Below, piece after piece: positions 19,601-22,600 of a DNA stretch of 64,000 bases. Source of the stretch: Gekko japonicus (taxonomy: Eukaryota); the NCBI RefSeq assembly GCF_001447785.1, contig NW_015172565.1, positions 347,947-411,946 of the forward strand. Reading direction: 5' to 3'. Position 1 is the stretch's first letter, and every line of letters starts with the position of its first letter. The position numbers were made by a program.

Positions 19601-22600
19601 GTCCTTAATGGCTTCAAAAAGTGCACCTTATGTAGAAGAGGAAAAAAATCTTGTTTGTATGGCTTAGTCTCACAGCTAGTTACTCCATTAAGCTAAAGCA
19701 AAGGGCAAATCTGCTAGAACACAAGGTGGCTAAAGTTCACAGGTAAGCTGCTCTGCTAGTGCTGGACCTCAGCAGTTGCATTGTTCGGAGTTAGAGGTGA
19801 CTTTCCTACTAATTTATCCTGTCCTTCCCTATTCCATGATAATGACTCACAGGTTCCCAACCTTATTGTTAGAAAAGATATACATATTGTATGTTTTGAT
19901 ATGCTAATTTAAGTTGTATAAATTGGAGGCTATGATGAATCATCTAAAAAACTTTAACTGGGTGACAGCAGTAGCAAAAAAAAATACATAGAATGTTTAT
20001 TTAAAGCAAAAAAAAAAATCCCTATGAAATTAACACCCATACTTGAAGAATTATAACTCAAAACTTTCTTCCAGAATTTATACTTCAGTTAGTTTAATGT
20101 TGTTGTTGTTCAGTCGCACAGTTGAGTCTGACTCTTCGCAACCCCATGGACCACATCACGCCAGGCCCTTCTGTCTTCCGTCATCCTCTGGAGTTTGCTT
20201 AATTTCATGTTCATTGCATCGATAACACTGTCTAACCATCTCATCCTTTGCCATCCCCTTCTTTGACCATCAATCTTTCCCAGCATCAGGGTCTTCTCCA
20301 GTGAGTGCTCCCTTCTCATTTGGCGGCCAAAGTATTTGAGGTTCAGCTTCAGTATCTGGCCTTCCAGGGAACAGTCAGGGCCACTAGTTCACGGATTCCC
20401 AAGATGTCAATGTTCAGTCTTGTCATCTCATTTTTGACCATATCCAACTTACCTTAATAAATCTTACATTCCAGGTTCCTTTGCAGTATTGTTCTTTGCA
20501 GCATCGGACTTTCCTTTCACCATCAGACACATCCAAAGCTGAGTGTCCTTAATGGCTTTGGCCCAGCCGCTTCACTCTTTCTGGGGCTACTTGTACTTGC
20601 CCTCTGCTCTTCCCCAGTAACATATTGGACACCTTCCGACCTAAGGGGCTCATCTTCTGGCGTCCTATCTTTTAGCTTTTTGTTACTGTCCATGGGGTTT
20701 TCTTGGAGTGGGTTGCCATTTCCTTCTCCAGTGGATCACGTTTTGTCTGATGTTTTCTCTAGACTAATACCTTAGATTGCATCTTTGTAAATTTTGAACA
20801 ATACATTTGGGAGAATAGTAACATTTGCATGAATATAGTGCTGTTCTAATAAGATGGCTGTTCTAAGATAAAACTTACTACCATTTGTAGTATAAAACCT
20901 TGGAAATACATTTGCTGGCTAGAAAAAATTGTTAAAACAATCAGCTTGATGTTTCCCTTCTCTGTGTAGAGTACTGTCAAGTTGCAGCCAACTTAGGGTG
21001 ACCCCATAGGGTTTTCAAGGCAAGAGCCGCTCAAGGCTTTCTTGGTGCTTTCCCATCCAAATACTGACCAGGGCCAACCCTGCTTAGCTTCTGCGATTGG
21101 GCTAGTCTGGGCCACCCAGTTCAGGGTATGTTTCCTTTACTTTTAATTAAACTGGAGCAATTCCTAAATTTGGCACAGCTGTCATCCTTCCTCCTTTTCA
21201 TTTTGATATAGATGGCTATTATGCTGGTGTCCCTGCTCCAATGTTTTGCCCTGAAGAAAGGAGGGGGAGCCCAGAACAGCCTCTCATATTTTTTAAATAG
21301 AAGGCCAAGAGCAGGAGAGTTAGCATTAAAGGGGCTGAACTACATGCAGGAAATCCAAAATGTATTTGTCCTTTCCCCCCCTTTTCTTAGCAAACTACAG
21401 CGGGGGGGGGGGGGGTTAACCATTTTCCTAGTGTGATCTTCAGCCAGATGAAAAATATAATTTTGTTTAGGAAACAAAAAACCCACAACCCACTCTGTCC
21501 TTGGGCTTTGATGCTCATACAGAGACGTTTTAGTTGTTGTTGTTGTTTTGGGGGGGGGAGAAAAAACAGCAGATCTGGTCCCAGGTCTTGCACATAAGGG
21601 TGGCTTCAGCCTAAAGCATCGCCAGCTTTGGAAGGAAGCTACTGCCAACAAGCTTTTTGCGCACCGATGGATTCGTGGTGGTTTCCCTGTACATCGCCTT
21701 AGCCCTAAGCGGCCAGGCGTCTCGTACATATAGATGTTATTTCACAGGTGAAGCCTCTGACAGTATACCCACCTTGTCTACTCTGACCCTATACTTAAGT
21801 TAGCGTGCTGTTGGAGAAGGGGAAGACGCTAATCAGCCTTGCCAACATGAAGGCTGCTGGACGAAGGAAGGGTCCATGGCGGAGCGGCTCTTCATACGGA
21901 AATTACCCTCAGCCGCGCGGCTTTCTTGGAAAACTCGTTCAGTGGTCGTCGCTCGACCTAAAGCGCCGCCGTTGACGAGAGGCCCGCAAAGTGCCAGAGA
22001 CGACAAAGCTAGTGCCGGTGTAGAAACTCCACTTTCCCCACACGCCGCTACCTGCTGGCGCAGTTTCTCGAAATACTCTTTTAAGACCCTGGGCCACTGT
22101 TGCTTTATAAACCTCAGGGTCTTCCAGGTTGAGAATCCGAACCTTAGGAGTACTGGCGAGGTGGTTTTTACTAACCCCGAAAGTGAGGACCTGACAGCAA
22201 TGGAAATTGGGAGCTGTAGTTCCTGGACCCTCTCGGCGGGAAAGGAGATTGAAGAGTTTTTAGACGACTTCGTTGTCTGCGACGGCGTCAAATATAATTT
22301 TGTCTGAGAAAGAGGTTCAATTAAACTGCTAATTTCAGGCGAGGGGGCTACAATCACAGGGTTACATGACAGAACAGGTCCACAATTATAATGATCTTGA
22401 GGAATTCTTAAAAGACATGCCAAGAACACTTTTAATCTCCACTGGGGGGACGGACTCTGTTATTGCCATATGTAAAACAGAAGGGAGCGACTTCTAAATT
22501 AACCTTCTCATCAGTTTGTTAAATTTGATTTGCAAGTTATGCTAATTTGCTAATATTTTTTTACTCCTCCCTCCACACACTGGTGAGGGGATGTGATCTT

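What the first reader, a model, noticed from the sequence alone, without database searches (positions are those of the whole stretch)
21560..22330. Ghost NUP205 promoter: ATG-less exon 1 copy that kept its CpGs, ZNF143/E2F sites and splice donor
Seen: ATG changed to AAA and a 1-nt deletion, yet the GTATGA donor (21897-21892), ZNF143 and E2F motifs and high CpG density persist despite substantial divergence from copy A; a TTTATAAA lies near 22104. Inference: CpG retention suggests the region is unmethylated in the germline and may still initiate minus-strand RNA. That RNA would run antisense across POLR3H or splice into NUP205; alternatively the region may act as an enhancer or loop anchor for CNOT4.
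Basis: partly seen in the sequence, partly recalled or inferred. Interest (0 to 1): 0.72.

Follow-up and report, generated by a model that had tools for sequence, protein, structure and literature searches.

The report
Relic NUP205 promoter beside POLR3H
A decayed second copy of the NUP205 gene's promoter and first exon sits about 15.5 kb from the working one in what looks like a lizard genome; it has stayed CpG-rich like a live promoter, but whether it still does anything cannot be shown from sequence alone.

Summary
At 21886-22246 (minus strand) lie two short blocks collinear with the real NUP205 promoter and exon 1 at 6328-6685. They are an E2F-like site plus an exact THAP11/ZNF143 site, and an exon-1 copy with ATG changed to AAA, a 1-nt deletion and the GTATGA hexamer. 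Everything between and around the blocks is diverged to noise, yet CpG o/e is 0.83 against a window median of 0.21.

The relic is half of a larger old duplication. The plus-strand CpG island 7903-8592 is homologous to 26204-26834. So a whole NUP205/CNOT4-type divergent promoter module exists twice, flanking an intact six-coding-exon POLR3H.

- Proximal copy: drives NUP205 and, by inference, POLR3H.
- Distal copy: by inference drives CNOT4 and leaves the NUP205 half orphaned.

My best reading is an orphan, germline-unmethylated CpG-island promoter relic that at most makes short non-coding minus-strand RNA. The donor is weakened (CAG to TCC), and splicing to NUP205 exon 2 would supply no start codon.

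No expression, methylation or cross-species data were available, so function is inferred. It is a new member of a known kind, of modest interest. I do not take the contig for human.

The parts
21560..22330 (-). N_B: orphan CpG island holding the relic NUP205 promoter and exon 1 (the finding)
   Evidence: 42 CpGs, o/e 0.83 and GC 0.51, against a window median of 0.21 and a left flank of 0.12. It does not overlap any within-window repeat.
22187..22246 (-). N_B conserved promoter block: E2F-like TTTCCCGC (22236-22243) plus the THAP11/ZNF143 SBS2-type site (22196-22220)
   Evidence: 41/59 identical to A 6618-6685, and 0 of 300 shuffles reach the score. Exact ACTACANNTCCCA. 17/25 matches to the SBS2 probe of PMC3627581, and 20/25 to the copy A site.
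21886..21932 (-). N_B relic of exon 1 and the donor: AAA (21922-21924) in place of ATG, a 1-nt deletion, and GTATGA at 21892-21897
   Evidence: 36/47 identical to A 6328-6375, and 0 of 300 shuffles reach the score. Alignment A1.
21895..22367 (-). ATG-free stretch of 471 nt on the minus strand, ending inside the donor hexamer
   Evidence: Second-longest ATG-free run on that strand. There are 0 ATGs in the 310 nt from the THAP11 site to the donor; shuffles give a mean of 4.8 and P(0) = 0.004. The test was post hoc.
22044..22058 (-). CTCF-like 15-mer with one mismatch, specific to copy B
   Evidence: One of 2 matches with at most 1 mismatch in the window, against 0.41 expected; 6 of 100 shuffles gave at least 2. 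The consensus was recalled, not taken from a call.
22104..22111 (.). TTTATAAA, a TATA-like palindrome
   Evidence: Present, 2 in the window, with no counterpart in copy A. Nothing indicates that it is used.
6328..6685 (-). N_A: the working NUP205 promoter core and exon 1 (ATG 6367-6365, exon end 6340, donor 6339-6334, THAP11 site 6638-6650, E2F-like 6675-6682)
   Evidence: The last codons of exon 1 (A-V-I-S) match residues 6-9 (A-V-N-S) of the human NUP205 chain printed.
4223..4365 (-). NUP205 exon 2 (143 nt, in phase with the 28-nt exon 1)
   Evidence: PDB NUP205 chains 5ijn_D (E 7.4e-24) and 6lk8_A (E 2.7e-20), residues 6-59. Splice sites read. Exons 3 and 4 lie within 1860-2051 and 486-680.
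7903..8592 (+). C_A: plus-strand CpG island with a GGGTGAGT donor near 8080; inferred non-coding first exon and promoter of POLR3H; paralogue of C_B
   Evidence: Local alignment with 26204-26834 scores 613, against dinucleotide shuffles of 366.7 +/- 30.3 (max 455, n = 200, z 8.1). Controls (reverse complement, another GC-rich island) score 314-337. BLAST E 1.3e-6. Alignment A2.
10842..17101 (+). POLR3H, six coding exons from ATG to stop, intact; the ATG exon has an acceptor at 10817, so an upstream non-coding exon is needed
   Evidence: Pfam SHS2_Rpb7-N (E 3.1e-6) and RNA_pol_Rbc25 (E 9.3e-16). PDB RPC8 chain 7a6h_G, E 4.1e-18. Exon frames and acceptor.
25976..26834 (+). C_B: plus-strand CpG-island promoter with the best SBS2 match in the window (25976-26000), an E2F-like site (26205-26212) and a GGGTGAGT donor near 26317; inferred CNOT4 exon 1
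   Evidence: 20/25 matches to the SBS2 probe.
53071..53335 (+). CNOT4 ATG/RING exon (ATG 53162-53164); it has an acceptor, so it needs an upstream non-coding exon
   Evidence: Pfam zf-RING_4, E 5.4e-20. Sequence read.

Best explanation
The region is the NUP205-side half (N_B) of an anciently duplicated divergent promoter module. The module is a NUP205 promoter with exon 1 on the minus strand, and a CNOT4-type CpG-island promoter with a non-coding exon 1 on the plus strand. Its two copies now flank an intact POLR3H.

- **Proximal copy.** The N half drives NUP205. The C half (7903-8592) most likely supplies the promoter and non-coding first exon of POLR3H.
- **Distal copy.** The C half (25976-26834) most likely drives CNOT4. 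The N half was left with no gene behind it and lost its start codon, its reading frame and the exonic part of its donor.

N_B has nevertheless stayed a CpG island with an intact E2F-like plus THAP11/ZNF143 (SBS2/M4-type) core.

The most likely mechanism is that factor binding at this core keeps the ~0.7 kb unmethylated and promoter-like in the germline. It then behaves as an orphan CpG-island promoter. At most it releases short, unspliced or poorly spliced non-coding minus-strand RNA that ends at nearby poly(A) signals. It probably makes neither a NUP205 isoform nor a long antisense RNA over POLR3H.

**Shown:** homology, the extent of the duplication, the lesions, the CpG density and the motifs. 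**Inferred:** which gene each C half serves, the unmethylated state, factor binding and any transcription.
For: **Homology of the N halves.** The two best non-self hits in the window are collinear and on the same strand. The blocks are 36/47 and 41/59 identical, and 0 of 300 shuffles reach either score.

**Homology of the C halves.** The alignment has z 8.1 against 200 dinucleotide shuffles, and the controls sit at shuffle level. BLAST gives E 1.3e-6.

**Only the promoter module is duplicated.** Translations of NUP205 exons 2-4, five of the six POLR3H coding exons (the 3'-most was not queried) and the CNOT4 exon hit only themselves. The one extra hit, at E 0.007, falls in an intronic repeat.

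**Gene map.**

**The duplication is old.** The spacer, the intron side and the upstream flank are no more alike than shuffles (z 0.96, -0.45 and 0.58). A simulated copy at d = 0.52 substitutions per site was detected in 40 of 40 trials.

**CpG density is maintained despite that age.** CpG o/e is 0.83-0.91, against a median of 0.21 and a flank of 0.12. The CpGs are mostly at new positions, with 7 shared columns out of 26 and 33. That is what an unmethylated equilibrium predicts. Lizard non-methylated islands are reported to have mammal-like CpG o/e at lower GC (PMC3583005, passages read).

**Motifs.** There is an exact THAP11 site, with 20/25 positions shared with copy A (motif definitions from PMC3627581, passages read).

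**Against productive use.**
- The donor's exonic CAG has become TCC.
- There is no ATG in the relic exon and no in-frame Met in NUP205 exons 2-4.
- Seven poly(A) hexamers lie in the 4.8 kb downstream, against one in the 1.9 kb of NUP205 intron 1.
- The relic shows no minus-strand composition skew (z below 0.5), while NUP205 intron 1, POLR3H, C_A and C_B each show one.
Against: - No expression, methylation, chromatin or cross-species data could be consulted, so every functional step is inferred.
- Sequence-based CpG-island calls are reported to be poor predictors of unmethylated DNA in cold-blooded vertebrates (PMC3583005).
- The block-versus-spacer contrast does not prove constraint on copy B. 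If only copy A's blocks are constrained, the spacer should be about twice as diverged as the blocks (d about 0.5-0.8). At d = 0.7 the simulation still missed 10% of cases and at d = 0.9 it missed 50%. The block boundaries were also chosen after seeing the data.
- The 471-nt ATG-free run and the kept GTATGA would fit a used 5' leader better than an idle relic.
- The assignment of C_A to POLR3H and of C_B to CNOT4 rests only on position, on donor motifs and on both ATG exons having acceptors.
Confidence: 0.55

Rival explanations
1. Distal alternative promoter of NUP205. The relic exon is a non-coding first exon (1B). Its RNA crosses POLR3H antisense as a ~15.5-kb intron and splices into an acceptor just upstream of the ATG of exon 1A, or less sensibly into exon 2. 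NUP205 would then have two promoters.
For: - The GTATGA hexamer and the last 9 exonic bases before it are kept.
- A 471-nt ATG-free run ends at the donor, as expected of a 5' leader that must not start translation early; P(0 ATG in 310 nt) = 0.004.
- The promoter core is kept.
- Copy A has a pyrimidine-rich stretch followed by AG about 35 nt upstream of its ATG. This was read by eye and not scored.
Against: - The donor's exonic CAG has become TCC, leaving 4 of 9 consensus positions against 7 of 9 in copy A (read; the consensus is recalled).
- Splicing to exon 2 gives no start codon.
- Seven poly(A) hexamers lie in the first 4.8 kb of the would-be intron.
- There is no strand skew on the minus strand downstream. 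The stretch 21559-20400 has the opposite T/A skew (z -4.0), though it holds a repeat and a pyrimidine-rich tract.
Confidence: 0.12
2. Inert relic. There is no initiation and no function. CpG density persists passively, for example because the sequence lies in the unmethylated neighbourhood of the CNOT4-type promoter or in a region of GC-biased repair. The two similar blocks only reflect constraint on copy A plus chance.
For: - The one-sided-constraint model is not excluded at d of about 0.7-0.9.
- The relic shows no strand skew.
- The ATG, the reading frame and the exonic donor half are lost.
- CpG-island prediction is unreliable in cold-blooded vertebrates (PMC3583005).
Against: - The island is sharply bounded: o/e is 0.12 immediately to the left and 0.34 to the right at 22913-23700.
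- It lies 3.76 kb from the C_B site, with CpG-poor DNA between them, so it is not simply part of that island.
- An exact 13-nt THAP11 site, expected 0.03 times per window, survives in sequence that is otherwise scrambled.
Confidence: 0.2
3. Exapted regulatory element without its own product. It would be an enhancer or upstream element of CNOT4 or POLR3H, or a boundary between the two genes that uses the CTCF-like site.
For: - A CTCF-like 15-mer with one mismatch lies at 22044-22058 and is absent from copy A. It is one of 2 such matches in 64 kb, against 0.41 expected.
- The relic sits between the 3' end of POLR3H and the CNOT4-type promoter.
Against: - The mismatch falls in the GG core of the recalled consensus, and the test was post hoc.
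- ZNF143 itself is reported to have no looping role (titles of PMC11687419 and 10.1101/2024.03.08.583987; listing only).
- No data on occupancy or chromatin contacts were available.
Confidence: 0.08
4. Not a promoter relic at all. It would be a protein-coding exon (a 208-codon stop-free frame spans it), a small structured RNA gene of the ZNF143-plus-TATA type, or a chance resemblance.
For: - A stop-free frame of 208 codons runs over 21836-22459 on the minus strand.
- An SBS-type site lies about 100 nt upstream of a TATA-like octamer.
Against: - The frame has 0 homologues at E <= 0.001 among 1.84 billion representative proteins. It has no Pfam hit even at E <= 1 and no ATG.
- There is no Rfam match at E <= 1 in 21000-23000.
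- The folding energy is not below that of shuffles: z +0.89, and 165 of 200 shuffles fold at least as well.
- Chance is excluded by the collinear pair of hits.
Confidence: 0.03

Closest known systems
Orphan CpG islands / non-methylated islands away from annotated promoters (PMC2944787, listing and start of abstract only; PMC3583005, passages read)
   Same: It is a sharply bounded CpG-rich island with no gene behind it. It has promoter-type motifs, and its CpG o/e is mammal-like at modest GC, as reported for lizard islands.
   Different: Its origin is traceable: it is a paralogue of a named promoter and first exon. Its unmethylated state and its promoter activity are not shown here.
Partial (5'-end) gene duplicates, and lncRNAs that are fossils of protein-coding genes (PMC5577775, listing and start of abstract only)
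   Same: A former coding first exon with a dead start codon still sits behind a promoter-like region and a donor-like hexamer.
   Different: Only exon 1 (28 coding nt) and the promoter were copied. No transcript is known. The parent gene is alive 15.5 kb away, so this is a duplicate relic and not the fossil of a lost gene.
SBS2 / M4 promoters bound by THAP11-HCF-1 and ZNF143 (PMC3627581, passages read; PMC5006282, abstract start)
   Same: It has an exact ACTACANNTCCCA in a CpG island, upstream of a first exon. The motif is shared by copy A, copy B and the C_B promoter.
   Different: The 3' half of the 25-bp site is a moderate match only (17/25). Binding has not been tested in this species.
Divergent or bidirectional housekeeping promoters, and upstream antisense RNAs limited by weak U1 sites and early poly(A) signals (recalled, not looked up here)
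   Same: It has a minus-strand promoter half paired with a plus-strand CpG-island promoter, a weak donor, and poly(A) hexamers soon after it.
   Different: The two halves are 3.76 kb apart (1.3-1.5 kb in the proximal copy), which is beyond the usual 1-kb definition. Part of the gap consists of later repeat insertions.

Membership tests
Partial duplicate (relic) of the NUP205 5' end | Collinear sequence homology to the parental promoter and exon 1 | tested here: met
   Two collinear same-strand hits with E 0.003 and 0.009. The blocks are 36/47 and 41/59 identical, and 0 of 300 shuffles reach either score.
Partial duplicate (relic) of the NUP205 5' end | Coding capacity lost (start codon, reading frame) | tested here: met
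   ATG is replaced by AAA at 21924-21922, and 1 nt is deleted before the donor.
Partial duplicate (relic) of the NUP205 5' end | The remaining parental exons are absent beside the copy | tested here: met
   tblastn, run exon by exon, of the frames holding exons 2, 3 and 4 found only the exons themselves at E < 0.1.
CpG island / non-methylated island promoter | Sequence criteria (CpG o/e > 0.6, GC >= 0.5, length > 200 nt; thresholds recalled) | tested here: met
   771 nt, o/e 0.83, GC 0.51. The core 21886-22260 has o/e 0.91.
CpG island / non-methylated island promoter | DNA actually unmethylated in the germline | not testable with these tools
   No methylation data were available. The state is inferred from CpG density that is maintained although the paralogous sequence is scrambled.
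CpG island / non-methylated island promoter | Transcription initiation (CAGE, H3K4me3) | not testable with these tools
   No expression or chromatin data were available.
SBS2 / M4 (THAP11-ZNF143) promoter element | THAP11 site ACTACANNTCCCA | tested here: met
   An exact match at 22208-22220 (-). There are 3 in the window against 0.03 expected.
SBS2 / M4 (THAP11-ZNF143) promoter element | Full 25-bp SBS2, including the 3' ZNF143 half | tested here: inconclusive
   17/25 matches to the probe printed in PMC3627581. Copy A scores 16/25 and C_B 20/25. No position weight matrix was at hand.
SBS2 / M4 (THAP11-ZNF143) promoter element | Occupancy by the factors | not testable with these tools
   No ChIP data were available for this organism.
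Alternative first exon of NUP205 | Usable 5' splice site | tested here: inconclusive
   The intronic GTATGA is identical to copy A, but the exonic CAG has become TCC. No splice-site scoring model was available.
Alternative first exon of NUP205 | The spliced product keeps a start codon for the NUP205 frame | tested here: not met
   This applies to splicing into exon 2. There is no ATG in the relic exon and no in-frame Met in the exon 2-4 frames. Splicing into an acceptor upstream of the copy A ATG was not scored.
Bidirectional promoter | Opposed start sites less than about 1 kb apart (criterion recalled) | tested here: not met
   The N_B site at 22208-22220 and the C_B site at 25976-25988 are 3.76 kb apart. 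About 0.9 kb of that is later repeats.
CTCF boundary element | Core motif match | tested here: inconclusive
   There is a one-mismatch match at 22044-22058 (-), and the mismatch falls in the GG core. The consensus was recalled.
Structured small RNA gene (ZNF143 site plus TATA, snRNA or Pol III type 3 style) | A known RNA family, or a stable fold, downstream of the TATA-like site | tested here: not met
   Rfam gave 0 matches at E <= 1 in 21000-23000. The fold z-score is +0.89.
Protein-coding exon | Homologues or domains for the 208-codon open frame | tested here: not met
   0 proteins at E <= 0.001 among 1.84 billion representatives. No Pfam hit.

The most novel reading that the evidence does not exclude
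The relic is not idle. After a divergent NUP205/CNOT4 promoter module was duplicated around a relocated POLR3H, its four halves were divided among three housekeeping genes. The 'spare' NUP205 half was then kept by selection as a working distal promoter. Its ATG-free leader and kept donor hexamer would serve a long NUP205 transcript, or a regulatory antisense RNA, that reads through POLR3H. Transcriptional interference would then couple the output of a nuclear-pore gene and an RNA polymerase III subunit gene.
Probability: 0.12. Interest if true: 0.6.

Novelty: new member of a known kind. Interest (0 to 1): 0.33.

Why it matters
If the relic is truly unmethylated and bound, it is a clean natural experiment. 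It would show how long a CpG-island promoter core (E2F plus a THAP11/ZNF143 site) can maintain itself once its gene is gone. It would also show which parts decay first: here the start codon, a YY1-like site (label recalled) and the exonic half of the donor went, while the factor sites and CpG density stayed.

The wider picture is a duplicated divergent promoter module whose halves were shared out among NUP205, POLR3H and CNOT4. It would illustrate how a relocated housekeeping gene can acquire a ready-made CpG-island promoter.

None of this changes a major concept. It is a well-defined case for people who study promoter evolution.

Tried and rejected
- **Standard blastn.** Scoring of +2/-3 found no second copy. 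The relic appeared only with +1/-1 scoring.
- **Semi-global alignment.** Aligning the spacers with +1/-1 scoring collapsed to score 0 and was uninformative. I replaced it with local +5/-4 scoring and a simulation.
- **CpG-rich block at 38.58-39.41 kb.** I considered it as the CNOT4 promoter and rejected it. It is bounded by terminal inverted repeats and is a transposon. It shows no alignment to C_A above shuffle level.
- **Small-RNA gene reading.** Rejected.
- **Coding reading of the 208-codon frame.** Rejected. The 167-codon plus-strand frame 21804-22307 was checked against Pfam only; it gave one sub-threshold hit at E 0.055.
- **Strand-skew test.** It gave no signal at the relic. Further downstream it is confounded by a repeat and a pyrimidine-rich tract.
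- **Pfam scan of open frames.** It covered 208 of the 232 stop-to-stop frames of at least 70 aa. The 24 short frames left out all lie beyond 34.5 kb.
- **Literature.** A search for POLR3H, NUP205 and CNOT4 together found 0 papers.
- **Not possible here.** I could make no comparison with other vertebrate genomes. I could not reach transcript or methylation data, splice-site scoring models or supplementary files. The organism was not identified. 'Lizard-like' rests on my recollection of the repeat families seen.
- **Not used.** The search for homologous proteins, the listing of cluster members, structure prediction and complex prediction, because none bears on the question.
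Full report
**What the window is**

The window holds no N and no soft-masking. Three genes were mapped exon by exon.

- **NUP205** runs on the minus strand.
  - Exon 1 spans 6367-6340 and exon 2 spans 4365-4223. Exons 3 and 4 lie within 1860-2051 and 486-680.
  - The exon 2 frame matches PDB NUP205 chains: human 5ijn_D at E 7.4e-24 and frog 6lk8_A at E 2.7e-20, residues 6-59.
- **POLR3H** lies on the plus strand between 10842 and 17101, with six intact coding exons.
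  - Pfam gives SHS2_Rpb7-N and RNA_pol_Rbc25.
  - PDB gives RPC8 chain 7a6h_G at E 4.1e-18.
- **CNOT4**: its ATG/RING exon is at 53071-53335 on the plus strand (zf-RING_4, E 5.4e-20; sequence).
- Both the POLR3H and the CNOT4 ATG exons begin with good acceptors. Each gene therefore needs an upstream non-coding exon.

All searches were exon by exon.

I do not take the contig for human, for three reasons.
- The NUP205 exon 2 frame is only about three-quarters identical to the human chain.
- POLR3H lies between NUP205 and CNOT4. By my recollection that is not the human arrangement.
- The interspersed repeats resemble squamate families, again by recollection.

The species was not identified.

**The observation**

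- ATG (6367-6365) corresponds to AAA (21924-21922).
- One base is missing before the donor.
- GTATGA is at 21897-21892.
- TTTCCCGC is at 22236-22243.
- An exact ACTACANNTCCCA is at 22208-22220.
- TTTATAAA is at 22104-22111.

The similarity to copy A is weak but real. With sensitive scoring, the two best non-self hits of 21500-22400 in the window are 21886-21932 with 6328-6375 (75%, E 0.003) and 22187-22223 with 6618-6653 (81%, E 0.009). They share strand and order, and their offsets differ by 11 nt. The next best hit has E 1.2. The blocks are 36/47 and 41/59 identical, and 0 of 300 dinucleotide shuffles reach either score.

The THAP11 site is expected 0.03 times per window and occurs 3 times, each in a promoter module. 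The E2F-like octamer occurs at chance frequency (3 found, 2.73 expected). Its three copies nevertheless sit in the same three modules.

**The relic is half of a bigger duplication**

The plus-strand CpG island 7903-8592 (C_A) aligns with 26204-26834 (C_B).
- The score is 613, against 366.7 +/- 30.3 for 200 dinucleotide shuffles (maximum 455).
- The reverse complement and an unrelated GC-rich island score 314-337.
- BLAST gives E 1.3e-6, and the alignment is A2.
- Both halves carry a GGGTGAGT donor.

The order is therefore N_A, C_A, POLR3H, N_B, C_B, then the CNOT4 coding exons. No NUP205 exon 2-4, no queried POLR3H exon (five of the six coding exons; the 3'-most was not queried) and no CNOT4 coding exon has a second copy in the window.

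The gap between N_B and C_B holds four later repeat insertions, and N_B itself is not a repeat. The only other CpG-rich block upstream of CNOT4 exon 2, at 38.58-39.41 kb, is a transposon with terminal inverted repeats.

I infer that C_A now serves POLR3H and C_B serves CNOT4. That leaves N_B with no gene.

**How old it is, and whether it is constrained**

Outside the two blocks, the copies are no more alike than shuffles. The z-scores are 0.96 for the spacer, -0.45 for the intron side and 0.58 for the upstream flank. Simulated copies of the spacer gave the following:

| Divergence d (substitutions per site) | Trials not detected (z < 2) |
|---|---|
| 0.52 | 0 of 40 |
| 0.7 | 10% |
| 0.9 | 50% |

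The blocks themselves correspond to roughly 0.25-0.4 substitutions per site. If copy B decayed freely and only copy A's blocks were held, the spacer should be about twice as diverged as the blocks. That is close to the detection limit. The contrast is therefore suggestive of constraint on copy B but does not prove it, and the block edges were chosen after the fact.

**CpG**

The finding region has o/e 0.83 (42 CpGs), and its core has 0.91. The window median is 0.21, the left flank 0.12 and the right flank (22913-23700) 0.34.

Only 7 CpG columns are shared, out of 26 in A and 33 in B. Density has been maintained, not the individual sites. In sequence this old, that is what freedom from germline methylation predicts.

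Two literature points bear on this (PMC3583005, passages read). Lizard non-methylated islands are reported to have mammal-like CpG o/e at lower GC, which fits. The same paper warns that sequence-based island calls are unreliable in cold-blooded vertebrates.

The apparent island out to 23.0 kb is inflated by a young CpG-rich repeat at 22625-22912.

**Would it make a useful RNA?**

*Against*
- The donor keeps the intronic hexamer, but its exonic CAG has become TCC.
- The relic exon has no ATG.
- NUP205 exons 2-4 have no in-frame methionine.
- Seven poly(A) hexamers follow within 4.8 kb on the minus strand, against one in the 1.9 kb of NUP205 intron 1.
- The relic has no strand skew, whereas NUP205 intron 1, POLR3H, C_A and C_B each show one.

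*For*
- The ATG-free run of 471 nt ends exactly in the donor. It is the second-longest such run on that strand.
- There is no ATG in the 310 nt from the THAP11 site to the donor, with shuffle P = 0.004. This observation was post hoc.

*Other readings that failed*
- There is no Rfam family at E <= 1.
- There is no unusual fold (z +0.89).
- The 208-codon open frame has no homologue among 1.84 billion representatives and no Pfam domain.

**Loop anchor or enhancer**

Two recent papers state in their titles that ZNF143 acts without looping (PMC11687419 and 10.1101/2024.03.08.583987; I saw the listing and abstract starts only). A copy-B-specific CTCF-like 15-mer with one core mismatch lies at 22044-22058 (the consensus was recalled). 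It is a lead and nothing more.

**Verdict**

The finding is real and correctly named as a relic NUP205 promoter and exon 1. It is best seen as the orphaned half of a duplicated divergent promoter module that was shared out among NUP205, POLR3H and CNOT4.

Most likely it persists as an unmethylated orphan CpG-island promoter with little or no productive output (confidence 0.55). A distal NUP205 promoter (0.12), an inert relic (0.20) and an exapted regulatory or boundary element (0.08) remain open.

It is a new member of a known kind: orphan CpG islands and partial-duplicate relics.

No comparison with other vertebrate genomes was possible, and no transcript or methylation data could be reached.

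Noticed in passing
window 7903-8592 and 25976-26834: The plus-strand CpG islands beside the two NUP205-type halves are themselves paralogous (z 8.1). C_B carries the best SBS2 match in the window (20/25), and C_A has none within 1 mismatch. POLR3H thus appears to use a copy of a CNOT4-type promoter and first exon.
   Followed up: partly
window 38580-39410: This CpG-rich, GC-rich block is bounded by ~28-nt terminal inverted repeats. It is a TIR transposon carrying promoter-like cargo and is not a gene promoter.
   Followed up: partly
window 57267-59399 (+), and 59912-60676 (+): A 711-codon open frame lies in CpG-rich DNA and has no Pfam hit even at E <= 1. The next frame has a sub-threshold reverse-transcriptase hit (E 0.062). 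This is probably a retroelement inside a CNOT4 intron.
   Followed up: partly
window 34907-37117 (-); repeats 34695-34973 and 54164-54441: A LINE-type reverse-transcriptase frame of 736 codons (RVT_1, E 1.6e-35). One copy of a ~280-nt repeat pair that is 98% identical lies next to it.
   Followed up: no
window 31619-31690 (-): A tRNA-Ala with anticodon GGC (Rfam 66.8 bits; ARAGORN). It could be a tRNA gene or a tRNA-derived repeat.
   Followed up: no
window 10164-10451, 22625-22912, 23820-24047: A young 288-nt repeat in three copies that are 93-95% alike, with CpG o/e of 0.92-0.97. One copy abuts the relic and stretches the apparent CpG island to 23.0 kb.
   Followed up: yes
window 22044-22058 (-): A CTCF-like 15-mer with one mismatch lies inside the relic and is absent from copy A. 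It is one of only two such matches in the window.
   Followed up: partly
window 15746-16012 and 40623-41184: Tandem repeats: four ~68-nt units in a POLR3H intron, and two ~281-nt units downstream of the transposon.
   Followed up: no
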